From a virus (lineage: Duplodnaviria > Heunggongvirae > Uroviricota > Caudoviricetes), in IMG/VR virus record IMGVR_UViG_3300047444_000299, positions 128,001 to 183,070 of that record: a DNA stretch of 55,070 bases. The stretch is one strand, 5' to 3'. The translations under genes and the position numbers were made by a program. Shown piece after piece: positions 27,742 to 38,915 of the stretch. The notes under the pieces are model-generated. The model saw only the letters and a list, made by a program, of their open reading frames with translations. It was not told the origin of the DNA and made no database searches. Within the stretch, counting starts at the first letter, position 1, and each line of letters starts with the position of its first letter.

Positions 27742-28206
27742 ATGAATAAAATTTATGTACTTCCCGACGATCAGTTTCTAACACTGGTCGCGTCTTGCAC
27801 CTCATACACTGAGGTTCTTCAAAAGCTTGGACTATCTCCCCGTGGTGGTACAAGCTCCAAGCTTTTGAAGAAACGCCTAATCGAACTAAAATGTTCGACA
27901 TCCCATTTCAAACCCCAACATGCAAACGCCCAAGCGAAAGCACAGCCGCTATCCACTATTCTTGTGGAGAATTCCGCGTACACGAATATCAATCGTATGA
28001 AAATTCGAATCATCCGCGATGGTTTGATGCAATACGAATGTACTGAATGTGGTCTTGGCCCAGAATGGAACGGGAAACCTATCACTCTGCAATTGGATCA
28101 TATCAACGGTATCCATGACGACCACCGGTTGACTAACCTTCGGTTCCTGTGTCCTAATTGCCATTCCCAGACCGATAGCTTTGCCGGTCGCAACAAACCA
28201 AAATAA
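27742..28206 (+). CDS. HNH endonuclease
   Basis: CTECG...LQLDHING..DHRLTNLRFLCPNCH. Confidence 0.92.
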   Translation: MNKIYVLPDDQFLTLVASCTSYTEVLQKLGLSPRGGTSSKLLKKRLIELKCSTSHFKPQHANAQAKAQPLSTILVENSAYTNINRMKIRIIRDGLMQYECTECGLGPEWNGKPITLQLDHINGIHDDHRLTNLRFLCPNCHSQTDSFAGRNKPK

Positions 28207-28295: not shown

Positions 28296-29696
28296 ATGAG
28301 CTACCAGAACCTGACCCAAACCACTAACGGCATGGCCGCTGTGAAATCGTCCCTGAATGCGTGTGTTGATCTGTTCGCACAGATTGGTAACGCCCGTACC
28401 CGTGACATTACCCCGGCTTTCCTGAAAGCCCTGCGTGAAGACCAGAACATTGCAATGCGTGTTCTGCAATGGTCGCGTGACATTCGCGGTGGTGCCGGTG
28501 AACGTGACACATTCCGTAAGCTTCTGGTTTCACTGACCGATGGTGGGCATACCGATCTGGTTGTTCGACTGATCGCCAAGGTTCCTGAAATTGGCCGTTG
28601 GGATGACCTGTTTGTTCTGATCGGTAAATCGTTGCATATCGATTCCATCATTGCCGAAACCTTCGCACAAGCTCTGGTTGAGAAGAATGGGCTTTGCGCA
28701 AAATGGTTACCGCGTGAAGGCAAGAAGTATTCCCGGTTCTTCATGAATTCGTTTGAATTGACCGAGCGTCAATACCGTAAACTGATCGTCGGTCTGTCCA
28801 AGACTGTTGAACAGCAAATGTGTGCCCAGCAATGGGATCAGATTGAATTCGGTAAAATCCCGTCGCTGGCTGCGAAGAACTACCAGAAGGCGTTCCATCG
28901 TAATGCCCCTGAGCAGTATCAGGAATACATCGACGGTCTGGCCTCGGGTAAAACCAAGATCAATGCCGGTGCGATCTTCCCATATGATGTAATTCGTGGG
29001 TTGAACGGTATTCAGGGTGTTGCGGATGCACAGTGGAAGGCTCTGCCTGACTACATGGCAGAATCGACCGAAAACCTGTTGGCAATCGTTGACGTATCGT
29101 CTTCGATGAACACTCGGGTATCGGACAACCTGACCGCGATGGAAGTTGCTGTGTCGTTGGGTATGTATGTTGCAGAACGCTCTAAAGGCGCGTTCAAAGA
29201 CAAGTTCCTGACATTCGATAGCAATCCTCGTCTGATCGACCTGAGCAACGCACGTAGCCTGACAGAACGTGTACGCATCACTCGATCTGCACCGTGGGGT
29301 GGTTCTACCGATCTGGAAAAAACGTTCAAACTGATTCTGGAAACTGCGGTTCAAAACCGTGTTCCGGCTTCCGATATGCCAACCAAGATCATTCTTTGGT
29401 CTGACATGCAGTTCAATTCTGCAATGAAAGGTGGCGAGTGGGGCAAAGAATCCGCGTACATCATGATCGACAACATGTACGCGAAGCATGGCTACAAACG
29501 TCCTGAAATCATTTTCTGGATCGTTGCTGCCAACCAACCGAATTTCCCAGTGACTTTCGGTGCCGGACGCACTGCCATGCTGTCGGGTTTCAGCCCTGCA
29601 ATCATGAAAGCTGTTCTGGCGAATTCGAGTGTTCCTGAAATGACTCCAATGTCTATGATGTTGGATGCCGTGAACATCGAACGCTACGACTGGTAA
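28296..29696 (+). CDS. DUF2828-family helical domain + C-terminal vWA protein (TROVE/Ro60-like architecture)
   Basis: TxNG start, RDIRGGAGER, GRWDDL, AKWLPREG; MIDAS DVSSS, T in GGSTD, D in WSDMQF. Confidence 0.82.
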   Translation: MSYQNLTQTTNGMAAVKSSLNACVDLFAQIGNARTRDITPAFLKALREDQNIAMRVLQWSRDIRGGAGERDTFRKLLVSLTDGGHTDLVVRLIAKVPEIGRWDDLFVLIGKSLHIDSIIAETFAQALVEKNGLCAKWLPREGKKYSRFFMNSFELTERQYRKLIVGLSKTVEQQMCAQQWDQIEFGKIPSLAAKNYQKAFHRNAPEQYQEYIDGLASGKTKINAGAIFPYDVIRGLNGIQGVADAQWKALPDYMAESTENLLAIVDVSSSMNTRVSDNLTAMEVAVSLGMYVAERSKGAFKDKFLTFDSNPRLIDLSNARSLTERVRITRSAPWGGSTDLEKTFKLILETAVQNRVPASDMPTKIILWSDMQFNSAMKGGEWGKESAYIMIDNMYAKHGYKRPEIIFWIVAANQPNFPVTFGAGRTAMLSGFSPAIMKAVLANSSVPEMTPMSMMLDAVNIERYDW

Positions 29697-29733: not shown

Positions 29734-30015
29734 TTGATGCAATTGACATTCGTGGAATTCATGATCGGCTACAAGGAATACTTCACCACCCGTGGTGAAA
29801 CTTGGTTAGGCGAATACATGGATGACCTGCTAGAACGCTCTGTAAGCTCGTATGAGCTGATTTCGAATGAAATGCAGGAACTGACACGGGTGATGTGGTT
29901 ACATGGCCCCAGAGACATCGCAAACTACGGCTACGCATGGTCTAAACGGGATCGTTTGGGTTACATGATGGCCGATTGGCTGGTCTATTTGGACACCGAT
30001 AAAAAATATTTTTAA
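29734..30015 (+). CDS. Hypothetical protein
   Basis: 93 aa ORF with AGGT RBS. Confidence 0.6.
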   Translation: MMQLTFVEFMIGYKEYFTTRGETWLGEYMDDLLERSVSSYELISNEMQELTRVMWLHGPRDIANYGYAWSKRDRLGYMMADWLVYLDTDKKYF

Positions 30016-30099
30016 AATATTTCAATTATTTTCGAATTTTTGAAAAACACATCGCTAAATACATATACCAAGTAAAAACTTCTTACTGAGAAATCAAAA

Positions 30100-30240
30100 A
30101 TGTCTGCAATGACTACCTCCCCAAAACGCTCCCTGAATAATGCTGGATATCCGGTACAGGATCGCTTTGCCTTTGATTTCGGCAAGCAAGAAGAATACGA
30201 TGGATTACTTTCGAAAGAGATTGACTGGGATTTGTTTTAA
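30100..30240 (+). CDS. Small hypothetical protein (46 aa)
   Basis: Manual translation MSAMTTSPKR...DWDLF. Confidence 0.4.
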   Translation: MSAMTTSPKRSLNNAGYPVQDRFAFDFGKQEEYDGLLSKEIDWDLF

Positions 30241-30258
30241 CCCGTCATAACGTTTTTC

Positions 30259-30291
30259 AAAAAGGGAATCCAGCAATGGGTTCCCTTTTTT
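30259..30291 (+). terminator. Intrinsic terminator
   Basis: AAAAGGGAATCC-AGCAAT-GGGTTCCCTTTTTT. Confidence 0.75.
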
Positions 30292-30294
30292 ATT

Positions 30295-30370
30295 GCGCTT
30301 AAAGTTCAAATGGATGAACGCCCGATTACGAATCGGGAAGTTGTGGGTTCGAATCCCTCTTGGCGCACCA
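30295..30370 (+). tRNA. tRNA-Arg (ACG), with stem mismatches
   Basis: CCCGA-TTACGAA-TCGGG, TTCGAAT, ACCA. Confidence 0.8.
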
Positions 30371-30385
30371 ATTTTGATGTAAATC

Positions 30386-30469
30386 GGATCAGACGGGACA
30401 CAGGTAGTCCTAGTGGGCTGTAACCCCATGCCGCTGGCGAAGTAGGTTCGATCCCTACCTGATCCACCA
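30386..30469 (+). tRNA. tRNA-Tyr (GTA)
   Basis: GGATCAG/CTGATCC, loop CTGTAAC, variable arm, ACCA. Confidence 0.8.
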
Positions 30470-30474
30470 ATTTT

Positions 30475-30600
30475 AGAATGCTAACAGCAAACTCAATCCT
30501 TTCCCGCCAATCCTTGGGAATATAGCTTAATCGGTAAAGCGTCTGGTCGTGATGACTGGGAGATTTCGGTTCGAGTCCGTCTTATTGAATGCATTCTGTT
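30475..30600 (+). ncRNA. ACAGCA-family RNA copy 1 (permuted tRNA cargo)
   Basis: AGAATGC-TA-ACAGCAA...GCATTCT-GTT. Confidence 0.75.
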
Positions 30601-30603
30601 TAT

Positions 30604-30679
30604 GTGCCTGTAGCTTACATGGTGAAAGCAATGGTCTGAAAAGCCATAGAGGTCGGATCGTTACCGACTGGGCACACCA
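30604..30679 (+). tRNA. tRNA-Phe (GAA)
   Basis: loop CTGAAAA; T-loop ATCGTTA; ACCA. Confidence 0.85.
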
Positions 30680-30760
30680 AATTATTTTGTTCCGAGACTA
30701 TTGAAAACAGAATCGGATCTGGTATGATCCTCCCCACGAACAAAATCATGGGTGACCAGA

Positions 30761-31156
30761 ATGGATCAAATGGTTGTTTACCGGGTTGAATGCCCAAAAA
30801 GCCGTCTCGGAATGTATTTCTCTAGCAGCTTTGCGCATCAGGAAATGTCCACTCGAACCCAGCACCCCGGCCCAACCGCCGATAATCGGTTGATGCTAGA
30901 GCTGCAATTGAAAAAGACCGAGTTGGGCGCAGAGGAAATTCGATTCAACCGGGCATGTCGGTTTGGGTTTGCATCAAAAAAGCAGATGCGTGATTGGATT
31001 TCCGAGGATGACTGGAAACGAAAGCTCGCAGATGAAGGTTTGATTGTAGCTAAATATCAGGTGCCGAAGGAACAAGTGGCTATTGGGCAAACTCAAGCGA
31101 TTTTTCATCCAATGCACGCCAAGCTGGTATCAACCATGTGTCCAACCAAGATTTAA
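30761..31156 (+). CDS. Hypothetical phage protein
   Basis: VYRVE...HPGP...FGFASKKQMRDW. Confidence 0.7.
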   Translation: MDQMVVYRVECPKSRLGMYFSSSFAHQEMSTRTQHPGPTADNRLMLELQLKKTELGAEEIRFNRACRFGFASKKQMRDWISEDDWKRKLADEGLIVAKYQVPKEQVAIGQTQAIFHPMHAKLVSTMCPTKI

Positions 31157-31172
31157 AAATATTTTGTAATTC

Positions 31173-31203
31173 TGTTTAGATTGAATCGAAACAGTGTTAT
31201 AGT
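31173..31203 (+). promoter_or_regulatory. Early-type promoter
   Basis: TGTTTAG-N18-TATAGT. Confidence 0.7.
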
Positions 31204-31209
31204 AGATTC

Positions 31210-31279
31210 ACAAGTCAGGGCAAGCCGGTTACTAGCCGGTCGCAAAGCTTCAAGTTATGCGAAACTGACTTGTTAACCA
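31210..31279 (+). ncRNA. Small structured RNA at transcript start
   Basis: ACAAGTCAG/CTGACTTGT 9-bp closing helix, internal hairpins, ends AACCA. Confidence 0.5.
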
Positions 31280-31340
31280 AATACCTAAACGCCTTGGGTA
31301 TTCGGATAGCGAGAATGTCGGGAGACATGCTTTCTATTTT

Positions 31341-31416
31341 GCGGATGTAGCTCAATTGGTAGAGCTTCTGCCTTCCAAGCAGAATGTTGCGAGTTCAAGT
31401 CTCGTCTTCCGCTCCA
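31341..31416 (+). tRNA. tRNA-Gly (TCC)
   Basis: TCTGC-CTTCCAA-GCAGA, TCCA end. Confidence 0.9.
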
Positions 31417-31435
31417 AATTCTTTGTGAGAATTAC

Positions 31436-31621
31436 ATGCCAAGTAAACAGCATATAATTGATGCAACCTTCCAGATCGCCAGTACGATGTATCGGAACCG
31501 GGAATGGCTTGATACATTAAGCCATGCTCAATTGATGGAATGGGTTGCAAAACAACTTGACGGTGTTGGAATCCCTACTGTGCCATGTGGTGCGTCTTGG
31601 GGCGTTCTGACCAAATCGTGA
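31436..31621 (+). CDS. Hypothetical protein
   Basis: 61 aa, ends PCGASWGVL. Confidence 0.65.
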   Translation: MPSKQHIIDATFQIASTMYRNREWLDTLSHAQLMEWVAKQLDGVGIPTVPCGASWGVLTKS

Positions 31622-31631
31622 GAAACATATT

Positions 31632-31880
31632 ATGAATTGTGGTTGCCCATTCGCTAGCTACGGTGTTAGCACGAAACATCGAGTATTGGTTGACTATCAA
31701 GGTCAGCGAAGCACGATGCTTATCGGTGATGGTCTGTTTCAGAAAATCAAACGCTTGACCGAAGAAACGAAACAAAAGTCTGTAAAGACTCGTATCGTTC
31801 ATGGTCAGACCTTGACGATTGAACAACAACGTAAGAAACAATACGTTGACCACCGAAACAAAATTCTGGGGTTGCACTAA
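31632..31880 (+). CDS. Hypothetical protein
   Basis: 82 aa ORF. Confidence 0.55.
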   Translation: MNCGCPFASYGVSTKHRVLVDYQGQRSTMLIGDGLFQKIKRLTEETKQKSVKTRIVHGQTLTIEQQRKKQYVDHRNKILGLH

Positions 31881-32101
31881 TGGCATTTCCGAAAGAATTG
31901 GCGCAGGTTCAAACAAACCTGACGCAGTTTGAATTGCAAGAAATCCGTGATGCTTTGCAGGTCACTACCCAGCCAAATATCGAATGGATCAAACCAATCT
32001 TTCTGTTGGCTGGTATGTGCCAAGCGGACTTTTTATTCAGGGGTCAGAAGTACACCCTGACCGAAGAATACGAATTGGTTATTTCAATTCGTAGAAAATG
32101 A
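31880..32101 (+). CDS. Hypothetical protein
   Basis: 73 aa, TAATG coupling. Confidence 0.55.
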   Translation: MAFPKELAQVQTNLTQFELQEIRDALQVTTQPNIEWIKPIFLLAGMCQADFLFRGQKYTLTEEYELVISIRRK

Positions 32102-32108
32102 TGTAATT

Positions 32109-32198
32109 GGTGTGTAGCGCCCAAGGGGGCAAACAGACTTGAAATCTGTCGCCACTGGTTAGTAGCCGGTGAGGGTTCGAATCCTTTATGCACCGCCA
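32109..32198 (+). tRNA. tRNA-Ser (TGA)
   Basis: ACAGA-CTTGAAA-TCTGT, long variable arm, GCCA. Confidence 0.88.
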
Positions 32199-32215
32199 AA
32201 TTTTGAGGAATTTTG

Positions 32216-32395
32216 ATGAATATTTTATTTTGGGTTGTGTGGATAATCTTTACCGGCTTTGATATTGGTTTCTTTTCCCAATACCACGAAGGTCGTGAAC
32301 CTGATGGTTGGAAGAAATACGCAATCGCGGTTGTGCCCGGTAGTGGTTTCTACTACAAGTGGCTAGCCGAAAAAGAATCAAAACAAAAATCCTAA
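32216..32395 (+). CDS. Small membrane protein
   Basis: GAGGA RBS; hydrophobic N-terminus. Confidence 0.6.
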   Translation: MNILFWVVWIIFTGFDIGFFSQYHEGREPDGWKKYAIAVVPGSGFYYKWLAEKESKQKS

Positions 32396-32397
32396 AC

Positions 32398-32428
32398 TGT
32401 TTAGGTTGACCCGAAACAGTGGTAGAAT
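32398..32428 (+). promoter_or_regulatory. Early-type promoter
   Basis: TGTTTAG-N18-TAGAAT. Confidence 0.7.
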
Positions 32429-32443
32429 AGATTCAAGTACAAA

Positions 32444-32518
32444 GCATCCGTGGTACAAGGGATGTGCATCGGCCTTCTAATCCGATATATGTTGGTTCGA
32501 ATCCAACCGGGTGCGCCA
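32444..32518 (+). tRNA. tRNA-Arg (TCT)
   Basis: GCATCCG/CGGGTGC, loop CTTCTAA, GCCA. Confidence 0.85.
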
Positions 32519-32523
32519 GTTTT

Positions 32524-32579
32524 TAGTTGCCAACAGCATACAAATTTCTAGGATAAAGAAACCAAAACGGCAACTAGTT
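32524..32579 (+). ncRNA. ACAGCA-family RNA copy 2 (short)
   Basis: TAGTTGCC-A-ACAGCAT...GGCAACTA-GTT. Confidence 0.7.
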
Positions 32580-32597
32580 AAAAGAATTTTGAAATTG

Positions 32598-32628
32598 TGT
32601 TTAGTTCCCCATCAACTTGTGATAGAAT
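32598..32628 (+). promoter_or_regulatory. Early-type promoter
   Basis: TGTTTAG-N18-TAGAAT. Confidence 0.65.
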
Positions 32629-32840
32629 GGTAACATAATGTGCGAATGTAGATGTGAACGAAATCATCGGCAAATAACCAATCAACAGATTTTCGTGATC
32701 GTTGATCGGGCCGAAGCTGCAATTTATTCCGCTGGTAGCGGGAATCGAACCAGCAGCAAGTTGTCGATTGAAAATGCGGTTCGCCAAGCTCTACAGACTG
32801 TTGATGCTCAATTAGCTCCAGCATGTAATTAAAGTTTTTC

Positions 32841-32872
32841 GGGGTTATTGATGGCGGATGCCAGCCCCACCA
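32841..32872 (+). ncRNA. 32-nt CCA-ended minihelix
   Basis: GGGGT...TGGC-GGAT-GCCA-GCCCC-ACCA. Confidence 0.45.
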
Positions 32873-32876
32873 GTTT

Positions 32877-32946
32877 TGGATACCAACAGCAAACCCAAAT
32901 ATATTTCAAACCATTTAATCTTGAAAGATAAAGACGGTATCCAGTT
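32877..32946 (+). ncRNA. ACAGCA-family RNA copy 3 (short)
   Basis: TGGATACC-A-ACAGCAA...GGTATCCA-GTT. Confidence 0.72.
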
Positions 32947-32951
32947 AAAAT

Positions 32952-33027
32952 GGCTCTATAGTGTTAGCGGAAAGCACGCTTGACTGTCTATCAGGAAGGA
33001 GGGATTCGAATTCCCTTAGAGTCGCCA
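32952..33027 (+). tRNA. tRNA-Asp (GTC)
   Basis: CTTGA-CTGTCTA-TCAGG, GCCA. Confidence 0.88.
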
Positions 33028-33048
33028 AATTTGATGTAATAGTTTCAT

Positions 33049-33124
33049 GGGTCGCTAATTCAACGGTTAGAATATCCGCCTTTTAAGCGGAAGGTTCCGA
33101 GTTCGAATCTCGGGCGACCCACCA
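33049..33124 (+). tRNA. tRNA-Lys (TTT)
   Basis: GGGTCGC/GCGACCC, loop CTTTTAA, ACCA. Confidence 0.92.
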
Positions 33125-33260
33125 AATGGAAACTCCCTCAGTTCTAACGCCTTCGGGTATCGACTGGTTTCTGTCAACGCCCAAGGGGATAAGCGTTGAC
33201 CCCCAAAGGTTCAGGGGTTTTGCGGTTTGATGATCACCAATAGAACCCAATCATCGATAT

Positions 33261-33335
33261 GTGGCTTTCGTCTAATGCCTAGGACACCATTCGCTCTGAA
33301 TGGAAATGTTGGTTAGATTCCAGCAAGCCGCACCA
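33261..33335 (+). ncRNA. Atypical tRNA-like RNA (loop CGCTCTG, T-loop TTAGATT)
   Basis: Full cloverleaf with ACCA but lacks U33, D-loop GG and C56. Confidence 0.65.
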
Positions 33336-33341
33336 AATTAT

Positions 33342-33427
33342 GGGTTGTCTGCTATGAGGGACAGCATTATTAACGCAACTTGTTTGTGTTGGTAATCCGG
33401 GTGGTTCGAATCCATCACAACCTACCA
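33342..33427 (+). ncRNA. tRNA-like RNA with elongated anticodon arm
   Basis: GGGTTGT/ACAACCT-ACCA, T arm GTGG-TTCGAAT-CCAT, long ATTATTAACGCAA/TTGTGTTGGTAAT arm. Confidence 0.6.
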
Positions 33428-33435
33428 ATTTTGAG

Positions 33436-33594
33436 GGTGATTCCTCGAAAGCTGTGTCATCGCACGTTAAATAGATGTCCTGACCGGAGGGGATATTTCA
33501 AAGGGGGCTTGCGATTGGTTCGATCAATCGTGCATATGAGAACGTATGCGGTTTTAGTCGAAGTATCTGAAATAGCGATATGGGAATTATCACC
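33436..33594 (+). ncRNA. YrlA-like RNA candidate (permuted T-acceptor-D module in long closing stem)
   Basis: GGTGATTCC...GGAATTATCACC closing stem; CGATTG-GTTCGAT-CAATCG, TGCATA/TATGCG, TATTTCA/TGAAATA. Confidence 0.55.
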
Positions 33595-33618
33595 GGTCTA
33601 ATCAGCCAGTTCGTTAAT

Positions 33619-33711
33619 GGGTTGTTAGCTCAATGTTGGTCAGAGCAATTGATATCACTAGCTAGAAGGGTATCTTTATGGAACGTAGTTCGAATCTGCG
33701 ACAATCCACGA
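33619..33711 (+). ncRNA. tRNA-like RNA with irregular anticodon arm, no encoded CCA
   Basis: GGGTTGT/ACAATCC, canonical D arm TAGCTCAATGTTGGTCAGAGC, T-loop TTCGAAT. Confidence 0.55.
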
Positions 33712-33969
33712 AATTCTCACTGGGTAAACAGTGAAATCCTCTGACATATAGGGATATGTCGGTTGGTCCACCAACCCTTAAATGGCGGCGTTTTCAGGTT
33801 ATCGATAAAACCTCGGCGGTTTTGTGGGTGACGTTACCATCCGATGGAGTTTTCATAGGTTCGACATTATATGAACCAATGTTGACTGACAAAGTGTCCA
33901 GTTATTGCATACTGAGTTCGAGGCGTTGCAACGCCGGACCCGAACTAAGCCTTTACCGGCGCTAACTAC

Positions 33970-34044
33970 GGGGGTGTCGTCTAATGCCTAGGACAACGTT
34001 CGCTATGAACGTGAATGCTGGTTAAATCCCAGCCAACCCCACCA
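33970..34044 (+). ncRNA. Atypical tRNA-like RNA (loop CGCTATG, T-loop TTAAATC), paralog of 33261
   Basis: Identical D arm TCGTCTAATGCCTAGGACA; ACCA end. Confidence 0.65.
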
Positions 34045-34053
34045 AATTAGATA

Positions 34054-34219
34054 GTGGTTCTATCAAATGCGTGTACCCGTCCTACGCTGACAACGGGAGG
34101 CTGACCCTTGCCGTCAACAGGGAAGTGGCAACTAAACATATCTAGTTGTACGCATGATGGGCGTGGTGTTTTGATAGCGATGAAAGTCGCGACGATCATT
34201 CACCGAAGGCTAACCACCA
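34054..34219 (+). ncRNA. CCA-ended multi-hairpin RNA
   Basis: TGGTT/AACCA closure then CCA; ATGCGTGTAC/GTACGCAT helix. Confidence 0.4.
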
Positions 34220-34271
34220 ATTCTTTGAATTCCAGATTGTTGAGCCTTTTGCTCCGATCTAAATAGAACAT

Positions 34272-34352
34272 GGTTCATATGACAAATGGCGCGTCACTCG
34301 GCTGTAACCCGATGCGGAAGCAGACTAGGTTCGATTCCTAGATGAACCACCA
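34272..34352 (+). tRNA. tRNA-Tyr (GTA), second copy
   Basis: GGTTCAT/ATGAACC, loop CTGTAAC, ACCA. Confidence 0.8.
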
Positions 34353-34357
34353 AACAA

Positions 34358-34443
34358 CGGTTGTAACGAATCCCCTGACCGGGGCTGGGTAGACGGTGAA
34401 TTCGTCAATCATCGCAGCGGTTCAAATCCGCAACAATCGACCA
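34358..34443 (+). ncRNA. tRNA-like RNA with non-canonical core
   Basis: CGGTTGT/ACAATCG-ACCA, T arm GCGG-TTCAAAT-CCGC. Confidence 0.55.
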
Positions 34444-34599
34444 AACATGCTGTAGTGCTTAATAGGCGAAGTAGGGCGCGTCAAGGGATTCCATCAAAGG
34501 CTTAGCGGCTTTGGGATCAATAGCCCAATCGGTGTAGCAACAGCCGGTGACAGTATGTACTGCGACCCACGTATGCAGTTTAAAAGAACAGTGGTCAAA

Positions 34600-34674
34600 G
34601 TGGATGTAGCCCAATGTAGAGGCAGCCCCATTTGCGGGGTGACAGTGTTGGTTGAATTCCATCCGTCCGCACCA
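34600..34674 (+). ncRNA. tRNA-like RNA with 6-nt anticodon loop
   Basis: GTGGATG/CGTCCGC-ACCA; GCCCC-ATTTGC-GGGGT. Confidence 0.6.
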
Positions 34675-34699
34675 AATTCGATCTAACGATCAACACGAA

Positions 34700-34779
34700 T
34701 GCTGTTGCTATATCAGGGGTGCAATCCCTCCATCACTGGAACGGTGATGTAATGAGAATGTGATATCTGTAACAGAGCA
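34700..34779 (+). ncRNA. Permuted tRNA-like module
   Basis: CTGTTGC/GTAACAG closure, T-like GGGG-TGCAATC-CCTC, CATCACTG-GAA-CGGTGATG. Confidence 0.45.
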
Positions 34780-34824
34780 GGGAAGTAGACCGCGATACTA
34801 GTCAGTGGTTAACTTCCCGGATCT

Positions 34825-34901
34825 GGGTGCGTAGCTCAGTTAGTAGAGCGGTCGGGTCGAAGCCCGATGCGTCAATGGTGCAATTCCATTCAAACCCACC
34901 A
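34825..34901 (+). ncRNA. tRNA-like RNA with tetraloop anticodon arm
   Basis: TCGGGT-CGAA-GCCCGA; T-loop TGCAATT; ACCA. Confidence 0.55.
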
Positions 34902-34924
34902 AATTTTGATGTAATGATTTCAAT

Positions 34925-35001
34925 TCCGTGTATAGCTCAGTTGGTAGAGCAGGCGGCTGTTAACCGTCAGGTCGTAGGTTCGAGTCCTACTACCGGAGCC
35001 A
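34925..35001 (+). tRNA. tRNA-Asn (GTT)
   Basis: GGCGG-CTGTTAA-CCGTC, GCCA; one bulged base in acceptor. Confidence 0.88.
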
Positions 35002-35069
35002 AATTCGATACCCCGATGTCTAAGGTAACGAACACTCGCTAGACCCGAAGTGTAAGAATCGGGTGACAA

Positions 35070-35149
35070 GGAGTTTTAGCTTAGTTAGTAAAGCAGCAGA
35101 TAACATTGGACACTGCAAGACGGTGGTGCATTTCCATCAGACTCCACCA
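35070..35149 (+). ncRNA. tRNA-like RNA with expanded anticodon loop
   Basis: GGAGTTT/AGACTCC-ACCA; GCAG-13 nt-CTGC. Confidence 0.55.
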
Positions 35150-35168
35150 AATTTATTGTGAGAGCTTT

Positions 35169-35417
35169 ATGTTTGATAAACGATTGCTTGAATTGAATTA
35201 CCCAGTTGTCGGTAAAGCGTTTGTTGAAAATGGCAAACGTCATCAAGTAGGACTTGTCCTAGATGGGTGGCGACGGTCTGGTCATTGGGTAGAAGGTGTT
35301 GCACATTCTGTGTATAAAGTTGGCGAAACTCCATTTTGGGTTAAGTTCTACGATAGACAGGGTGTCGAATATGTTATCGAACACAGTTGTCAATTTGAAC
35401 CCAGAGATTTGATATGA
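35169..35417 (+). CDS. Hypothetical protein
   Basis: ATG 35169 after GAGAG. Confidence 0.6.
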   Translation: MFDKRLLELNYPVVGKAFVENGKRHQVGLVLDGWRRSGHWVEGVAHSVYKVGETPFWVKFYDRQGVEYVIEHSCQFEPRDLI

Positions 35418-35539
35418 CCTTGACAAAGATTCCAATGGATAGCAAGAACCGAATGATTCGCCTTGGTGGTGGATTGAACGATGGTAACTGGTTTGTCCGA
35501 GTTGATTTGTGGTTCGTCGGTTTTCGAGTCACTAAATAA
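35414..35539 (+). CDS. Small hypothetical protein (41 aa)
   Basis: Manual: MTLTKIPMDSKNRMIRLGGG...WFVRVDLWFVGFRVTK. Confidence 0.5.
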   Translation: MTLTKIPMDSKNRMIRLGGGLNDGNWFVRVDLWFVGFRVTK

Positions 35540-35547
35540 GTTTACAT

Positions 35548-35635
35548 TCCAAGATGCGCGGAATTGGTATCGCACCCGACTGTTAATCGGACGACCGTAA
35601 GGTCACTACAGGTTCGAACCCTGTTCTTGGAGCCA
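35548..35635 (+). tRNA. tRNA with Asn anticodon (GTT) and long variable arm
   Basis: TCCAAGA/TCTTGGA-GCCA, loop CTGTTAA, V-arm GACC-GTAA-GGTC. Confidence 0.75.
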
Positions 35636-35739
35636 AATTTGATGCCATTGTTGGATACCCCTTTATTGGGAACCCCGACTTAGTATCAGGTAGCCGTTTA
35701 GGCAAGATTCAGTTCATGGACTGTAAAACCATGACTTAA

Positions 35740-35937
35740 CGTGGGGTAGCTCAGTTGGATTAAATCCCGAATGTTGAAAGCCGGAGAGCGCACCGGGGAT
35801 TAGACGCTAGGAGCCAGTCGGGGTGTGATTTGAAGGATGGGCGTTGCTTCCCGGAGAACAATCACGTCGTTATCGGTTTTTAAGAGCATCGGCATCTAAG
35901 CCGAAGGTCGTTGGTTCGAGTCCGGCCCCCACGACCA
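35740..35937 (+). ncRNA. tRNA body with ~120-nt insertion in D-loop
   Basis: CGTGGGG/CCCCACG-ACCA, TAGCTCAGTTGG...AGAGC, T-loop TTCGAGT. Confidence 0.65.
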
Positions 35938-35952
35938 AATTTGTTTCAAAAG

Positions 35953-35983
35953 TGTTTAGAATCTGTTTCGAGTGTGGTATGAT
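35953..35983 (+). promoter_or_regulatory. Early-type promoter
   Basis: TGTTTAG-N18-TATGAT with TGTGG. Confidence 0.72.
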
Positions 35984-36012
35984 TGATTCATATCCCAAAC
36001 AGAGATACTGAA

Positions 36013-36441
36013 ATGACTAGCGTATACCACCGCATCGGTACAGTTGACATCCAAACGGTTCGACTGGCCCAAGATAGCGAGTATGATCGAATCATCAAGC
36101 CGGGTAAGCAACCACCCGCCAAGGCTGAGTATTTTGGTCAGCGAGTCAAGCTTTTTAGTAAAGGTACTCGATTGAAGACCTTCTACAAGCATGGAACCAA
36201 ATGCTCGGCCTGCGGCCTAGAAGCTCAGTTCTATGCGGTTGAACGTCCATCCCACGAATCCGGTGATTTTCCATATCACCTGAATCTCTGGGGAATTGAT
36301 GTAAATGGTACTGAGGTGTTGTTTACCCATGACCATACCTTGGCACGGTCTGCCGGTGGTGCTGATAATATCGGCAATACCACAACCATGTGTTCGCCAT
36401 GCAATTTTGCTAAATCACTGACAGAGAAACGTGGGAAATGA
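36013..36441 (+). CDS. HNH endonuclease-like protein
   Basis: CSACG...THDHTLARSAGG.D...N....CSPCNFAK. Confidence 0.82.
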   Translation: MTSVYHRIGTVDIQTVRLAQDSEYDRIIKPGKQPPAKAEYFGQRVKLFSKGTRLKTFYKHGTKCSACGLEAQFYAVERPSHESGDFPYHLNLWGIDVNGTEVLFTHDHTLARSAGGADNIGNTTTMCSPCNFAKSLTEKRGK

Positions 36442-36785
36442 TCCTCAGTCACAGAGATATCCCAGAACGGTTTTACGAAGCCGCTCTGATGCACTTCGGA
36501 GTTGATAAGATTTGGTGGAGCAAGCTGAATAAGCCGTTCTTTCAAAATCGAAAGCCCCTTGAGTGGAAGTTTGGATCTTTACGGATGTTGTATCACAAAC
36601 ATCGTGGTTGCTGTTATGCAGTCAAGGTTGTGGTTGATATGCCGGACATGGAACAACTCGCAAGAGAAATTCTGTCGGTCCAACCGATGAATCCAGACTT
36701 GATTAAGAATCTACTGAATGATCCATTAGCTAATACGTTGATGAATCGTTTTGTAATGAGACACAGTTTTAAATCGCCGGAATAG
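36438..36785 (+). CDS. Hypothetical protein
   Basis: ATGA overlap; stop overlaps tRNA-Thr. Confidence 0.55.
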   Translation: MILSHRDIPERFYEAALMHFGVDKIWWSKLNKPFFQNRKPLEWKFGSLRMLYHKHRGCCYAVKVVVDMPDMEQLAREILSVQPMNPDLIKNLLNDPLANTLMNRFVMRHSFKSPE

Positions 36786-36851
36786 CTCCAATGGTAGAGC
36801 GCCTGTTTTGTAATCAGGATGTTGCGGGTTCGAGTCCTGTTTCCGGCACCA
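36776..36851 (+). tRNA. tRNA-Thr (TGT)
   Basis: GCCGGAA/TTCCGGC, loop TTTGTAA, ACCA. Confidence 0.9.
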
Positions 36852-36853
36852 AT

Positions 36854-37307
36854 TTTGAGTCTCCATGACTTTCCATAAAGGAAAGATGGCAGGCGAGTTG
36901 TAACGAGAGTGATCATACCGCCCAATTGGTCTGTGACGAATTTGGTATTTGATCCATACCGAGTCAACGAGACTCAAACAAAATTTATCCGGGCTTCGGC
37001 CCAAGCGAGCGGTTAAGCCAATTTATTGGTCATGGCGTCGGAAGTCGTATGGGGATAATAACCCGGCAAAGACCATACGGGATAGATCAAATTTGAACAA
37101 TGCACAGACTGATGTGCTGCAAGGGTGAAGACAGTAGAAGCCCTGTAGATGTGTGGGTTTTCTGTCGCATCACACAAAGCCGGGATCAGTACCGGTGTTC
37201 AAAACCAATTTGAATCGAAGGCGAAAGCCCTAAAATCAGCTAGCCGGTAAAGCCCTGTAAGATTGGGTGTCCGAAAGGATGTTGCGTAACTGACCCGGTG
37301 ATTCAAA
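36854..37307 (+). ncRNA. Run of four back-to-back structured RNAs
   Basis: Closing helices TTTGAGTCTC/GAGACTCAAA, TATCC/GGATA, TTTGAAC/GTTCAAA-ACCA, TTTGAATC/GATTCAAA. Confidence 0.5.
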
Positions 37308-37325
37308 CTAACTTGTGAGTATTTG

Positions 37326-37667
37326 ATGAATTCATACCAGCAACAACAAGCGATAGCTAAGGCCAAGCAGTATCAGGTTGATTTGGGTAAAGACATTCAA
37401 ATCGGGAATTTGGTTCGGGTAACTTCCGGGTACAAATCCAGCGACGGTATCTGTAAGGTCGTGAAGGTTACTGACAACCCAAAGCATAATACTCTGACTT
37501 TTGAAGTTAGACGGGTGATGAAGCCTAACGATTTGATCGTTAAGAATTCAAAGACCACTTATGCGGTATCCGCTCAAAATGCTGAAAAGGTTGATCCTGA
37601 AAGTCTGTTCCAGAAAGCTTTGGAACATGCCGAAAATATCCGTGCCCACCTGTTAACACTGGTATAA
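37326..37667 (+). CDS. Hypothetical protein (SH3/KOW-like, paralog A)
   Basis: IQIGNLV...FEVRRVMK. Confidence 0.65.
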   Translation: MNSYQQQQAIAKAKQYQVDLGKDIQIGNLVRVTSGYKSSDGICKVVKVTDNPKHNTLTFEVRRVMKPNDLIVKNSKTTYAVSAQNAEKVDPESLFQKALEHAENIRAHLLTLV

Positions 37668-37671
37668 ATAG

Positions 37672-37959
37672 ATGATACAGATTGGAAACGTTGTTTACTG
37701 TAACCATCACTGGAATGATCGAGAAGGTTATTTTGTTGTAGAAGCCGCTGGCTCAAGGGCGGGTACGTTTACATGCCGTCGAATCATGAAAGCTGATGGA
37801 ACTATCATCATGAAGTCGAAACTTCGGCCTACATTTGATGTAAAAGATGTGGTGTTGATGACCCCAGATGCGATGCAAACCCGTTATGACAACAATGTCA
37901 AACGTGCGATTGCACAGGAACAAGCAGAATTAAATCACTTGCTATCCAATATCAAGTGA
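37672..37959 (+). CDS. Hypothetical protein (paralog B)
   Basis: IQIGNVV...FTCRRIMK. Confidence 0.65.
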   Translation: MIQIGNVVYCNHHWNDREGYFVVEAAGSRAGTFTCRRIMKADGTIIMKSKLRPTFDVKDVVLMTPDAMQTRYDNNVKRAIAQEQAELNHLLSNIK

Positions 37960-38019
37960 TACAGAACACAGCCACTCCCCAGTGTCGTGTCGTAGGGATT
38001 ATCTAACCCTACAAAATTT

Positions 38020-38172
38020 AGGATGGAATACAGCAAAACCTCAAAAATACTGATCGCCGTTTAGGCTCCAGTTGTACCGATTAGGCGGAATCCTAAACCG
38101 AACAGTGGGTAATAACTGTGTGAGTATCGAAAATTGACCTCCGATACAAAAGTTAAAGGGTGCCATCCTGTC
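38020..38172 (+). ncRNA. ACAGCA-family RNA copy 4 (multi-hairpin cargo)
   Basis: AGGATGG-AAT-ACAGCAA...CCATCCT-GTC. Confidence 0.68.
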
Positions 38173-38178
38173 TAATTT

Positions 38179-38254
38179 CTTTCCGTAGTGTTCAACGGTA
38201 GCACGTTTCGTTTGGGACGATATAGAGTCAGTTCGAATCTGACCGGGAAGACCA
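38179..38254 (+). tRNA. tRNA-Pro (TGG)
   Basis: CTTTCCG/CGGGAAG, loop TTTGGGA, ACCA. Confidence 0.82.
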
Positions 38255-38267
38255 AATTTTGATACAA

Positions 38268-38341
38268 CCCGCTATAGCATAATGGTAATGCAATCGGCTG
38301 ATAACCGATAGATCGAAGTTCAATTCTTCATAGTGGGACCA
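38268..38341 (+). tRNA. tRNA-Ile (GAT)
   Basis: ATCGG-CTGATAA-CCGAT, ACCA. Confidence 0.87.
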
Positions 38342-38397
38342 AAGATCGCGCTTCATCCCCTGACATCGACTGGTTCTTTGTTACGTTGGAGCCTTCT

Positions 38398-38472
38398 GGT
38401 TCTATAGGCTAGTTGGAAAACCAAGTCCCTCATAAGGACAGATCCCCGGTTCAAAGCCGGGTAGAACCACCA
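38398..38472 (+). tRNA. tRNA-Met/Ile2 (CAT)
   Basis: GGTTCTA/TAGAACC, loop CTCATAA, ACCA. Confidence 0.8.
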
Positions 38473-38473
38473 C

Positions 38474-38548
38474 GGGGCTATGGTAAAGTTGGAAATACGT
38501 CAGCCTTGCACGTTGAAGACCCGAGTTCGAATCTCGGTAGCTCCACCA
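38474..38548 (+). tRNA. tRNA-Ala (TGC)
   Basis: G3:U70 pair, loop CTTGCAC, ACCA. Confidence 0.9.
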
Positions 38549-38565
38549 AATATATGTTTCAAATG

Positions 38566-38596
38566 TGTTTAGATTGTGTTTCAAACATGGTAAAAT
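38566..38596 (+). promoter_or_regulatory. Early-type promoter
   Basis: TGTTTAG-N18-TAAAAT. Confidence 0.7.
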
Positions 38597-38616
38597 AAAC
38601 ACATGTACAACGGTTT

Positions 38617-38689
38617 TAGATGCTAACAGCAAACACATTAAATTGATCTGGGGATACCCCTGAATAATTAAAGAATGATGCATCTAGCT
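38617..38689 (+). ncRNA. ACAGCA-family RNA copy 5 (short)
   Basis: TAGATGC-TA-ACAGCAA...GCATCTA-GCT. Confidence 0.72.
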
Positions 38690-38703
38690 AAAGATTTCAA
38701 AAT

Positions 38704-38788: not shown

Positions 38789-38798
38789 AAAACAGGAA

Positions 38799-38913: not shown

Positions 38914-38915
38914 TT

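What the first reader, a model, noticed from the sequence alone, without database searches (positions are those of the whole stretch)
30475..30600. ACAGCA copy 1 uses a different tRNA permutation point
The cargo order is acceptor 3' strand with internal CCA (TTCCC-GCCA), linker, acceptor 5' strand GGGAA, D arm TAGCTTAATCGGTAAAGC, anticodon-like arm TCTGGTC-GTGAT-GACTGGG, then T arm CGG-TTCGAGT-CCG, joined to the scaffold by TCAAT/ATTGA. The break is between T arm and acceptor rather than in the anticodon arm. This looks like the junction of two tandem tRNA genes captured inside the scaffold, which suggests how these RNAs arise.
Basis: partly seen in the sequence, partly recalled or inferred. 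Interest (0 to 1): 0.72.

Follow-up and report, generated by a model that had tools for sequence, protein, structure and literature searches.

The report
Handle-clamped tRNA mimic, permuted in acceptor stem
Between two ordinary tRNA genes this soil phage carries a conserved small RNA gene that holds a whole tRNA look-alike with its CCA end sealed into a loop and its parts re-ordered at an unusual point, most likely a partner RNA of the phage's Ro60-shaped protein and a rare fossil of how such RNAs arose from two adjoining tRNA genes.

Summary
At 30475-30597 (+), between tRNA-Tyr and tRNA-Phe, a 7-bp clamp plus ACAGCAA encloses, in this order: acceptor 3' strand, GCCA, a 6-nt loop, acceptor 5' strand, D arm, a non-canonical anticodon-like hairpin and a T arm. 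Moving the upstream strand behind the T arm makes ARAGORN call a tRNA; the native order gives none. Orthologues at the same site in two related viral contigs, plus one metagenome fragment, keep the design through compensatory changes in the acceptor, D and T stems.

One refinement: nucleotides 6-7 pair with the two bases after the T stem, not with the upstream strand. The break therefore lies inside the acceptor 3' strand (about 67/68). Both copies of that strand are half retained, as expected of a tandem tRNA junction, a model already published for YrlA. The TCAAT/ATTGA link is not supported by covariation.

The gene 0.8 kb upstream (DUF2828/DUF7788) models as a Ro60 ring, so a Y-RNA-like role is the best reading; no function is shown.

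This scan has noted the ACAGCAA/DUF2828 family before on other DNA (at least 45 genomes). This particular topology turned up only in this phage clade. It is a new variant of a known kind.

The parts
30475..30481 (+). clamp (outer handle stem), 5' strand AGAATGC
   Evidence: Perfect 7-bp complement of 30591-30597; identical in L003 and L004; same design in eight other elements of the window
30484..30490 (+). ACAGCAA box, unpaired, on the 5' side of an asymmetric internal loop (30482-30492)
   Evidence: Invariant in the orthologues. 15 of 28 viral loci found by the handle motif alone also encode a DUF2828 homologue
30493..30497 (+). inner link helix, 5' strand TCAAT (weak, A/T-rich)
   Evidence: Pairs with 30584-30588 in the window; aligned columns pair in only 50% of cells in the orthologues
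30501..30505 (+). upstream copy of the acceptor 3' strand (tRNA positions 68-72)
   Evidence: Pairs with 30516-30520; pairs 1:72 and 3:70 change on both sides in the orthologues
30506..30509 (+). discriminator G plus encoded CCA, inside the sealed acceptor loop
   Evidence: CCAATC is invariant in the window, L004, L003 and L182; the discriminator is a purine in all four
30510..30515 (+). loop/spacer ATCCTT joining CCA to nucleotide 1
   Evidence: 5-6 nt in all orthologues; within the range of spacers between neighbouring tRNA genes of this array
30516..30522 (+). acceptor 5' strand (positions 1-7)
   Evidence: nt 1-5 pair upstream; nt 6-7 pair with 30584/30583
30523..30541 (+). U8 A9, D arm (4-bp stem, loop with GG), G26
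   Evidence: Rfam tRNA local alignment; pair 11:24 is C-G in the window and G-C in L003; U8, A14 and GG are kept in all
30542..30560 (+). anticodon-like hairpin, 7 bp (3 G-U) with a 5-nt loop; not a decoding loop
   Evidence: 6 bp/6 nt in L004 and 4 bp/6 nt in L003; base of the stem conserved
30561..30581 (+). 4-nt variable loop and T arm (loop TTCGAGT)
   Evidence: T stem has 3 pairs plus 2 mismatches in the window and L004, and 5 perfect pairs in L003, with 51:63 and 52:62 changed on both sides
30583..30586 (+). remnant of the body's own acceptor 3' strand (positions 66-69, TATT); 30583-30584 pair with nt 7 and 6
   Evidence: Pairs 6:67 and 7:66 are standard in all three orthologues, and both are changed on both sides in L003
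30584..30588 (+). inner link helix, 3' strand ATTGA (overlaps the remnant above, so the two pairings compete)
30591..30597 (+). clamp, 3' strand GCATTCT, followed by GT
30386..30469 (+). tRNA-Tyr(GTA), 5 nt upstream of the element
   Evidence: ARAGORN; same neighbour in L003 and L004
30604..30679 (+). tRNA-Phe(GAA), 6 nt downstream of the element
   Evidence: ARAGORN and Rfam; RNase P cleavage at its 5' end would set the 3' end of the element (inference)
28296..29696 (+). gene of the DUF2828/DUF7788 protein (466 aa), the presumed protein partner
   Evidence: Pfam; PHROG 850 'RNA-binding protein'; AlphaFold model with pLDDT 81 whose 13 best PDB matches are all Ro60/TROVE, TM 0.38-0.62

Best explanation
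Copy 1 is a real, selected small RNA gene of the phage 'clamp + ACAGCAA' family. It is transcribed with the tRNA array and freed when the flanking tRNA-Tyr and tRNA-Phe are processed. The clamp and box are the handle, presumably held by the Ro60-shaped DUF2828 protein encoded 0.8 kb upstream. The cargo is a complete tRNA-shaped body. It keeps the elbow nucleotides (U8, A14, GG in the D loop, a TTCGA-type T loop, 26/44, 15/48), has a degenerate anticodon-like hairpin, and has an acceptor stem sealed by a loop that still encodes purine-CCA. The handle leaves the body through the acceptor 3' strand: pairs 1-5 use an upstream strand and pairs 6-7 use the strand that continues from the T stem. The RNA would then act like a Y RNA of the YrlA/Yrn1 kind, presenting a tRNA mimic that brings a tRNA-binding enzyme or substrate to the ring protein. 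It most likely arose from the junction of two tandem copies of one tRNA gene. Shown: anatomy, conservation, covariation, and the Ro60-like fold of the neighbouring protein. Inferred: transcription and processing, protein binding, function and origin.
For: Anatomy is. Permutation: ARAGORN calls a tRNA only after re-permutation, and this is specific to the true upstream strand; the Rfam tRNA local hit covers model positions 7-64. Orthologues sit at the same site, between tRNA-Tyr and tRNA-Phe, in L004 and L003, with a partial copy in L182. Compensatory changes occur at 1:72, 3:70, 6:67, 7:66, 11:24, 51:63, 52:62 and 30:40, and the tertiary-contact nucleotides are kept, even though the cargo evolves faster than the flanking tRNAs (56-75% against 74-100% identity). 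Covariance model R1 scores only these four above 58 bits in 619 kb of related loci. Nine handle elements lie in the window. The handle motif alone leads to DUF2828 genes in 15 of 28 loci. The DUF2828 model matches Ro60 structures as its top 13 PDB hits. Precedents: YrlA and Yrn1 are tRNA-like Y RNAs with opposite arm orders, and M. smegmatis YrlA is cut by RNase P in its acceptor loop and receives CCA (PMC4201824). A dimeric-tRNA origin has been proposed for YrlA (10.1101/312249).
Against: There is no expression, processing or binding data. The minimum-free-energy fold is no more stable than shuffled sequences (z = 0.01) and does not form the T arm. The cloverleaf models lie 3-4 kcal/mol above the MFE. 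There are only three full orthologues, representing essentially two lineages, so the compensatory changes are few independent events. The link helix is not supported by covariation. The element is missing in the closest relative L002 and in the cultured phage Milchi, so it is dispensable. The handle lacks the GNCGAA-type Ro60 motif of bacterial Y RNAs, and no Rfam Y-RNA model matches. The protein matches DUF2828/DUF7788 in Pfam and has no match to the TROVE family.
Confidence: 0.55

Rival explanations
1. Copy 1 is an RNase P substrate that becomes a two-piece RNA. RNase P cuts 5' of G30516 in the acceptor loop and exonucleases trim the spacer back to the encoded CCA. The result is a handle-tethered tRNA body with a free CCA end, which could be recognised, modified or even charged. 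This could coexist with the Y-RNA reading.
For: Purine-CCA directly follows the acceptor 3' strand and is invariant in four sequences. The composite acceptor has 7 positions stacked on a 5-position T stem. U occupies position -1 in the window and L003. Precedent: M. smegmatis YrlA is cleaved by RNase P and gets CCA in vivo (PMC4201824). CCA also sits in the sealed acceptor loops of about 5 of 14 YrlA-order relatives.
Against: The continuous acceptor helix is only 4-5 bp, and Chen et al. saw no cleavage of YrlAs that lack a 7-bp stem (PMC4201824). The discriminator and the 1:72 pair vary (G/A; G-C, A-U, U-A), so there is no fixed aminoacylation identity. The conservation extends beyond CCA (CCAATC), which fits a loop motif as well as it fits a 3' end. 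The genome encodes no CCA-adding enzyme.
Confidence: 0.2
2. Copy 1 is a free decoy or sponge for a host tRNA-targeting defence nuclease or tRNA-binding toxin. It would work by tRNA shape alone, with the clamp serving only to stabilise the RNA and no role for the DUF2828 protein.
For: The element lies in a 27-tRNA array of a large lytic-type phage that also carries the counter-defence gene Acb1. Many family members carry isolated anticodon-like hairpins with 7-nt loops. The element is dispensable in relatives, as accessory counter-defence genes often are.
Against: The anticodon-like arm of copy 1 is the least conserved part (7, 6 or 4 bp; 5-6-nt loops), which is poor for an anticodon-nuclease decoy. 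The handle is strongly linked to DUF2828 genes, and the invariant ACAGCAA argues for a dedicated binding partner.
Confidence: 0.15
3. Copy 1 is a decaying by-product: a partly deleted tandem tRNA duplication that happens to sit in a handle and has no function of its own.
For: It is absent from L002 and Milchi. The T stem is weakened to 3 pairs in the window and L004, and the anticodon arm is irregular. The fold shows no thermodynamic signal.
Against: At 56-58% cargo identity between lineages, all four arms and the elbow nucleotides persist, with changes on both sides of 6-8 pairs. CCAATC is invariant.
Confidence: 0.07
4. Copy 1 is the precursor of a working, decoding tRNA made from a circularly permuted gene, as in Cyanidioschyzon merolae: the ends are ligated and the acceptor loop is then opened.
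For: The 3' acceptor strand plus CCA precedes the 5' strand, and the clamp brings the ends together. The genome holds a PF09414 ligase-family gene.
Against: There is no canonical 5-bp/7-nt anticodon arm in any orthologue. No RtcB was found in the genome. No tRNA-splicing endonuclease is reported in bacteria (10.1101/312249), and I did not search this genome for one. The break lies inside a helix rather than at a bulge-helix-bulge site. The same handle encloses cargo that is not a tRNA at all.
Confidence: 0.03

Closest known systems
YrlA-type Y RNAs of bacteria and mycobacteriophages (Chen et al. 2014, PMC4201824; structure in Wang et al. 2018, bioRxiv 10.1101/312249)
   Same: Both are small RNAs encoded near a Ro60-fold protein. 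The ends pair into a protein-binding stem, and the rest is a tRNA mimic with D/T elbow contacts and a sealed acceptor. They sit next to tRNA genes, and an origin from dimeric tRNA has been proposed.
   Different: YrlA runs T arm, sealed acceptor, D arm, with the Ro60 stem in place of the anticodon arm. Copy 1 runs sealed acceptor, D arm, anticodon-like arm, T arm, with the handle leaving through the acceptor 3' strand. The handle motif is ACAGCAA, not GNCGAA. No Rfam Y-RNA model matches. The partner is DUF2828/DUF7788, not a Pfam TROVE protein. CCA is encoded in the loop.
Deinococcus radiodurans Yrn1 (PMC4201824)
   Same: The D-like arm, anticodon-like arm and T arm run in the normal tRNA order. 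Chen et al. already note that the T/D orientation differs between Yrn1 and YrlA.
   Different: Yrn1 has no sealed CCA-bearing acceptor hairpin and only a doubtful D arm. Copy 1 has all four arms plus the handle, forming a five-helix junction.
Circularly permuted tRNA genes of Cyanidioschyzon merolae and some Archaea (PMC3978253, PMC3218864)
   Same: The 3' part of the tRNA, with its end, is encoded upstream of the 5' part. The acceptor is first a closed loop. A tandem-duplication origin has been discussed.
   Different: Those genes yield decoding tRNAs through bulge-helix-bulge splicing and ligation. Copy 1 has no canonical anticodon loop and sits in a phage, and its flanks form a conserved handle shared with non-tRNA cargo.
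Class I RNAs of dictyostelid amoebae (Rfam RF01414; Kjellin et al. 2021, PMC7919456)
   Same: Both have a short stem joining the 5' and 3' ends, followed on the 5' side by an unpaired 11-nt motif. Its invariant T3, C6, C9, A10 and A11 fit GCTAACAGCAA of copy 1. The interior is variable.
   Different: Class I RNAs are 42-65 nt and eukaryotic, and a tRNA-like interior is not described for them. The Rfam model gives only 21.5 bits (threshold 41.5), on copy 7, and nothing on copy 1.
Other clamp + ACAGCAA RNAs of DUF2828-encoding phages (uncatalogued; seen in this window, in 25+ viral loci and in Pseudomonas phage Milchi)
   Same: The handle, the position in tRNA arrays and the neighbourhood of the DUF2828 gene are identical.
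   Different: Their cargo is a lone anticodon-like hairpin, T-acceptor-D (copies 8 and 9 and many others), AC-T-acceptor-D (copy 6, L012:7825-7941) or D-AC-T without a sealed acceptor (L013:5223-5317). The copy 1 order was found only in the window, L003, L004 and L182.

Membership tests
Clamp + ACAGCAA handle RNAs of DUF2828 phages (uncatalogued) | 6-9-bp terminal stem, 0-3 nt, ACAGCA(A), variable cargo, complementary strand, then G(T/C) | tested here: met
   7-bp stem, 2 nt, ACAGCAA, 96-nt cargo, complement, GT
Clamp + ACAGCAA handle RNAs of DUF2828 phages (uncatalogued) | Lies near a DUF2828 gene and/or inside a phage tRNA array, on the same strand | tested here: met
   DUF2828 gene ends 779 nt upstream, on the same strand; the element sits between tRNA-Tyr and tRNA-Phe
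YrlA-type Y RNA | Encoded next to a Ro60 (TROVE + vWA) orthologue | tested here: inconclusive
   The neighbouring protein has a Ro60 fold (top 13 PDB hits). By sequence it matches DUF2828/DUF7788, with no Pfam TROVE match and no Ro60 among the PDB sequence hits
YrlA-type Y RNA | GNCGAAN0-1G motif on the 5' strand of the Ro60-binding stem (PMC4201824) | tested here: not met
   The 5' strand and internal loop read AGAATGC-TA-ACAGCAA-AC; there is no CGAA motif
YrlA-type Y RNA | tRNA-like domain in the order T arm, sealed acceptor, D arm | tested here: not met
   The order is sealed acceptor, D arm, anticodon-like arm, T arm
YrlA-type Y RNA | Match to the curated covariance model | tested here: not met
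   No Y-RNA family appears at E up to 10 on 30440-30640 or up to 5 on 30000-45200
YrlA-type Y RNA | Bound by Ro60 in vivo; carries tRNA modifications | not testable with these tools
   Needs immunoprecipitation and modification mapping
tRNA (RF00005) | Cloverleaf in linear order reaching the gathering score, or detection by ARAGORN | tested here: not met
   22.9 bits against a 29-bit threshold, model 7-64 only; no ARAGORN call in the native order
Circularly permuted tRNA gene | 3' segment encoded upstream of the 5' segment, so that re-permutation gives a cloverleaf | tested here: met
   ARAGORN calls a 77-nt tRNA after re-permutation in the window and L004, and in L003 at a relaxed threshold
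Circularly permuted tRNA gene | Canonical anticodon arm (5 bp, 7-nt loop), giving a decoding tRNA | tested here: not met
   7 bp/5 nt, 6 bp/6 nt and 4 bp/6 nt in the three orthologues
Circularly permuted tRNA gene | Bulge-helix-bulge motif at the termini and a splicing endonuclease/ligase pathway | not tested
   No BHB search was run. No RtcB is in the genome; one PF09414 ligase-family gene is present
Dictyostelid Class I RNA (RF01414) | Short terminal stem plus an adjacent 11-nt motif with invariant T3, C6, C9, A10 and A11 (PMC7919456) | tested here: met
   GCTAACAGCAA at 30480-30490 fits all five positions (read against the paper)
Dictyostelid Class I RNA (RF01414) | Length 42-65 nt and a match to the Rfam model at the gathering score | tested here: not met
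   Copy 1 is 123 nt with no hit; only copy 7 gives 21.5 bits against a 41.5 threshold

The most novel reading that the evidence does not exclude
Copy 1 is opened by RNase P at its sealed acceptor and trimmed to the encoded CCA. The Ro60-like ring protein then carries, through the ACAGCAA handle, a complete tRNA body with a free CCA end. This would be a tethered tRNA used as bait, guide or substrate, for example to bring tRNA-repair or tRNA-degrading enzymes to the ring, or to trap a host toxin that acts on tRNA 3' ends. The several permutation points in this family would then be different ways of exposing different faces of a tRNA on one handle.
Probability: 0.15. Interest if true: 0.8.

Novelty: new variant of a known kind. 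Interest (0 to 1): 0.58.

Why it matters
Y RNAs of bacteria are thought to descend from dimeric tRNA transcripts, but the sealed acceptor loops of known YrlAs keep no trace of that origin. Copy 1 and its orthologues keep purine-CCA, a tRNA-sized spacer and two half-decayed copies of the acceptor 3' strand. That is the pattern expected of a captured tandem junction, so the published origin model becomes checkable on sequence.

The finding also shows that one protein-binding handle can be joined to a tRNA body at several different points: the anticodon loop, the D/anticodon junction, the acceptor strand, or an open acceptor. This argues that the tRNA shape is what is selected, not any one connectivity. 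It also offers natural variants for working out which face of the tRNA the unknown effector reads.

For annotation, such genes are invisible to tRNA finders and to Rfam, and they can be mis-called as short ORFs.

Tried and rejected
- **Loose collection scans.** Two loose pattern scans of viral contigs for the copy 1 design with any clamp returned only chance matches.
- **Specific pattern, other collections.** The clamp-specific pattern run on the metagenome collection gave one true fragment, L182, and ten chance hits. The same pattern on the genome collection gave seven chance hits.
- **Cultured phages.** blastn of the region against GenBank phages found only tRNA-level similarity.
- **Donor tRNA.** The best global identities of the re-permuted cargo to 178 phage tRNAs were 64-69%, with no outlier. 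The parent tRNA therefore cannot be named.
- **Thermodynamics.** The single-sequence fold has z = 0.01 and lacks the T arm. Energy evaluation cannot decide between the link helix and the composite acceptor, because 2-bp helices are penalised. My L003 models were mis-built by the script and are not used.
- **Alignment-based folding.** RNAalifold on the MAFFT alignment recovers only the clamp and the acceptor hairpin. The D-loop and anticodon-arm length differences put L003 and L004 out of register. Re-alignment to model R1 did not cure this, so the D and anticodon-arm counts are underestimates; the per-sequence table is the better record.
- **Readings considered and rejected.** An ordinary degenerate tRNA gene is ruled out because no downstream strand closes the acceptor. 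A coding region is ruled out because the only ORF, 30549-30704, runs through tRNA-Phe.

Full report
**Setting.** The window is the last 55 kb of a 183,070-bp IMG/VR phage record with direct terminal repeats. ARAGORN finds 27 tRNA genes, all on the + strand between 25.2 and 45.1 kb. The finding lies in the 134-nt gap between tRNA-Tyr (30386-30469) and tRNA-Phe (30604-30679).

**The observation.**
- A 7-bp clamp (30475-30481 with 30591-30597) is followed by two bases and ACAGCAA (30484-30490).
- TCAAT (30493-30497) faces ATTGA (30584-30588).
- Between them, in order: TTCCC, GCCA, a 6-nt loop, GGGAATA, TA, a 4-bp D arm with GG in its loop, G, a 7-bp hairpin with a 5-nt loop, a 4-nt variable loop, and a T arm with loop TTCGAGT.

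Several tests show this is more than chance.
- Rfam's tRNA model aligns 30522-30582 to model positions 7-64 at 22.9 bits. That is D, anticodon and T arms without an acceptor, and it is below the 29-bit threshold.
- ARAGORN sees no tRNA here in the native order.
- When bases 30499-30509 are placed behind 30516-30581, ARAGORN calls a 77-nt tRNA. The same operation works for L004 at default settings and for L003 at a relaxed setting.
- The effect is specific. Among 66 upstream 11-mers, only the three that overlap the true strand, plus one other, give a call. Random tails do so in 6 of 300 trials. The core with its natural downstream sequence gives none.

**Relatives.** A protein-guided search with the neighbouring DUF2828 gene fetched 25 viral loci.
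- In L004 and L003 the same element lies between tRNA-Tyr and tRNA-Phe, at L004:8140-8265 and L003:8133-8251.
- A metagenome fragment, L182, holds a truncated copy of the L003 type.
- In L002, the closest relative by the DUF2828 protein, tRNA-Tyr and tRNA-Phe are 14 nt apart. In the cultured Pseudomonas phage Milchi, tRNA-Arg and tRNA-Phe are 11 nt apart. Neither shows a remnant of the element.
- On the DUF2828 tree the five genomes form one well-supported clade: (window, L002) beside (Milchi, (L003, L004)). The element was therefore lost at least twice, or it moved. Mosaicism is evident: tRNA-Tyr is 100% identical between the window and L004, while the DUF2828 genes are 70% identical.
- A covariance model of the three orthologues (R1) scores only these four above 58 bits in 619 kb of related loci. 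The next hit, L013:5223-5317 at 38.5 bits, has D, anticodon and T arms but no sealed acceptor.
- Scans of the viral, metagenome and genome collections found no further member.

**Structure from comparison.** A segment-by-segment table and pair lists give the following.

| Helix / pair | Window | L004 | L003 |
|---|---|---|---|
| Sealed acceptor 1:72 | G-C | A-U | U-A |
| Sealed acceptor 3:70 | G-C | G-C | C-G |
| D stem 11:24 | C-G | C-G | G-C |
| T stem | 3 pairs + 2 mismatches | 3 pairs + 2 mismatches | 5 perfect pairs (51:63 and 52:62 changed on both sides) |
| Anticodon-like hairpin | 7 bp / 5-nt loop | 6 bp / 6-nt loop | 4 bp / 6-nt loop |

- U8, A14, GG in the D loop, the TTCGA-type T loop and A44 are kept in all three. 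Positions 15/48 switch together, from A/U to U/A.
- CCAATC in the acceptor loop is invariant in all four sequences, and the discriminator is always a purine.
- The anticodon-like hairpin is conserved at its base but never has the canonical 5-bp stem and 7-nt loop.
- On the model-based alignment, 79% of cells pair, against 33-48% when the partners are slid. Six pairs change on both sides, which 1 of 500 shuffles reaches. D-arm and anticodon-arm counts there are depressed by length differences that the alignment cannot absorb.
- The cargo evolves faster than the flanking tRNAs: 56-75% identity against 74-100%. Its retained pairing is therefore informative.

**A refinement of the break point.** Nucleotides 6 and 7 of the acceptor 5' strand do not pair with the upstream strand in any orthologue. 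They do pair with the two bases that follow the T stem: T-A and A-T in the window and L004 (after a one-base bulge), C-G and G-C in L003.
- In the window, the four bases 30583-30586 are the exact complement of positions 4-7.
- The RNA thus holds two half-decayed copies of the acceptor 3' strand. The upstream copy is good for positions 68-72 and followed by purine-CCA. The downstream copy is good for positions 66-67 (66-69 in the window).
- The acceptor is best read as a composite 7-position helix, and the handle leaves it between positions 67 and 68.
- The TCAAT/ATTGA helix overlaps the downstream remnant. It pairs in only half of the aligned cells in the orthologues, although each orthologue has some A/T-rich complement nearby.
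- Nearest-neighbour energies cannot settle this choice.

**Family and partner.** Nine elements in the window share the clamp, the box and the closing G(T/C).
- An 18-nt handle motif alone retrieves 28 viral loci, with cargo ranging from 20-nt hairpins to tRNA-like bodies. Fifteen of those loci encode a DUF2828 homologue within a few kb, often starting about 20 nt after the RNA.
- The window's 466-aa protein matches Pfam DUF2828 and DUF7788 and PHROG 850 'RNA-binding protein'.
- Its AlphaFold model (pLDDT 81, pTM 0.78) has Ro60/TROVE structures as its 13 best PDB matches, including Ro60 of Thermus phage phiLo (TM 0.38-0.62, alignments of 503-574 columns). Sequence search of the PDB finds only a vWA domain.
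- Homologues occur in 710 GenBank phage records. Pseudomonas phage Milchi carries four handle RNAs in its tRNA array.
- No Rfam family covers the handle. The only hint is a sub-threshold match of copy 7 to the Dictyostelium Class I RNA model (21.5 bits). The published description of that class is a terminal stem plus an 11-nt motif with invariant T3, C6, C9, A10 and A11 (PMC7919456), and the handle here fits it.

**Other permutation points.** The break point varies across the family.
- Copies 8 and 9 of the window, and a dozen elements elsewhere, have a T arm followed directly by a sealed 7-bp acceptor and then a D arm.
- Copy 6 (38800-38909) and L012:7825-7941 add an anticodon-like hairpin in front of the T arm, which places the break between the D and anticodon arms.
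- L013:5223-5317 has D, anticodon and T arms in the normal order, with a canonical Lys-like loop.
- About five of fourteen sealed acceptor loops start with CCA, with or without a discriminator. The chance expectation is near 3% per loop.
- Together these look like different frames cut from tandem tRNA genes.

**How it most likely works.** Published work shows that bacterial Y RNAs bind Ro60 through the stem formed by their ends and use a tRNA-like module as the effector side. YrlA (T-acceptor-D) and Yrn1 (D-anticodon-T) differ in arm order. M. smegmatis YrlA is cut by RNase P in its acceptor loop and then receives CCA (PMC4201824). YrlA folds as an L-shaped tRNA mimic, and a dimeric-tRNA origin was proposed for it (10.1101/312249). 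A phage Ro60 binds phage-encoded Y-like RNAs and host PNPase (PMC12135203).

By analogy, I read copy 1 as a Y-like RNA whose handle is held by the DUF2828 ring protein and whose cargo presents a whole tRNA shape. Release from the array transcript by RNase P at tRNA-Phe and by 3' processing of tRNA-Tyr is inferred from the 5- and 6-nt spacers. Binding, processing and function are all untested.

The rivals are an RNase P-opened two-piece RNA with a free CCA end, a protein-independent decoy, a decaying relic, and a precursor of a real tRNA. They are weighed in the Rival explanations section. The last is excluded for practical purposes by the non-canonical anticodon arm in every orthologue.

**Novelty.** The family has been noted repeatedly by this scan on other DNA, but I found no paper or Rfam entry describing it. 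The tandem-tRNA idea is published for YrlA. What is new here is the topology: a complete four-arm tRNA body, sealed with an encoded purine-CCA, joined to the handle through the acceptor 3' strand, with both copies of that strand still recognisable. I rate it a new variant of a known kind and of moderate interest. It is confined to one small phage clade and is dispensable there.

Noticed in passing
L012:7825-7941 and window 38800-38909: Handle RNAs whose cargo runs anticodon-like hairpin (7-nt loop), T arm, sealed acceptor, D-like arm. This is a third permutation point, between the D and anticodon arms. The L012 element has TCAGCAA instead of ACAGCAA.
   Followed up: partly
L013:5223-5317: Handle RNA with D arm, a canonical Lys-like anticodon arm (loop CTTTTAA) and a T arm in normal order, but no sealed acceptor. 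Its T arm and the bases after it resemble those of copy 1. It is the best non-seed hit of model R1 (38.5 bits).
   Followed up: partly
L013:12769-12906, L018:8062-8152, L028:3901-4034, L033 (rc 665-797), window 43367-43500: In about 5 of 14 YrlA-order elements the sealed acceptor loop begins with CCA, with or without a discriminator base. This is far above chance and suggests that encoded CCA is a recurrent relic or feature of the family.
   Followed up: partly
window 30509-30514 and 38870-38877: The acceptor loops of copy 1 and copy 6 share the hexamer AATCCT. The other sealed acceptor loops listed do not have it.
   Followed up: no
window 30386-30469 versus L004:8051-8134: tRNA-Tyr is 100% identical between the window and L004, although their DUF2828 genes are only 70% identical. 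L003 and L004 have 83.5% identical DUF2828 genes but 74% identical tRNA-Tyr. The tRNA arrays are mosaic.
   Followed up: partly
L190:8303-8830 (Pseudomonas phage Milchi, PQ464597.1): A cultured phage carries four clamp + ACAGCA RNAs with hairpin cargo in its tRNA array. None is annotated as an RNA, and a 'hypothetical protein' CDS (L190:8418-8546) is annotated over one of them. This offers an experimental system for the family, though not for copy 1.
   Followed up: partly
window 40391-40446: Copy 7 gives a sub-threshold, full-length match to Rfam Dicty_Class_I_RNA (21.5 bits, threshold 41.5). The handle fits the published 11-nt motif of that amoebal RNA class.
   Followed up: partly
L036, L040, L041, L043, L045, L048: Many short handle RNAs (50-60 nt) in other phages carry a single 5-bp hairpin with a 7-nt loop of the form CT-NNN-AA. 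The anticodon-like triplet differs between them.
   Followed up: no
window 43776-43851: ARAGORN calls a tRNA with anticodon CTA (an amber-suppressor type, labelled Pyl) that starts 7 nt after handle RNA copy 9. Rfam scores it as a good tRNA (63 bits).
   Followed up: no
window 42209-42709; 27742-28206; 35983-36441: An Acb1 anti-CBASS homologue (Pfam E = 2e-34) and two HNH endonuclease ORFs lie inside the tRNA array.
   Followed up: no
window 30255-30292 and L002:7920-7955: A conserved imperfect hairpin followed by a T run lies just upstream of tRNA-Arg. It is terminator-like, although the array continues on the same strand. The simple terminator scan did not call it.
   Followed up: no
G000:C1:14869-15441 (outside the window): The genome has one PF09414 (RNA_ligase family) ORF of 358 aa, but no RtcB and no CCA-adding enzyme.
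   Followed up: no
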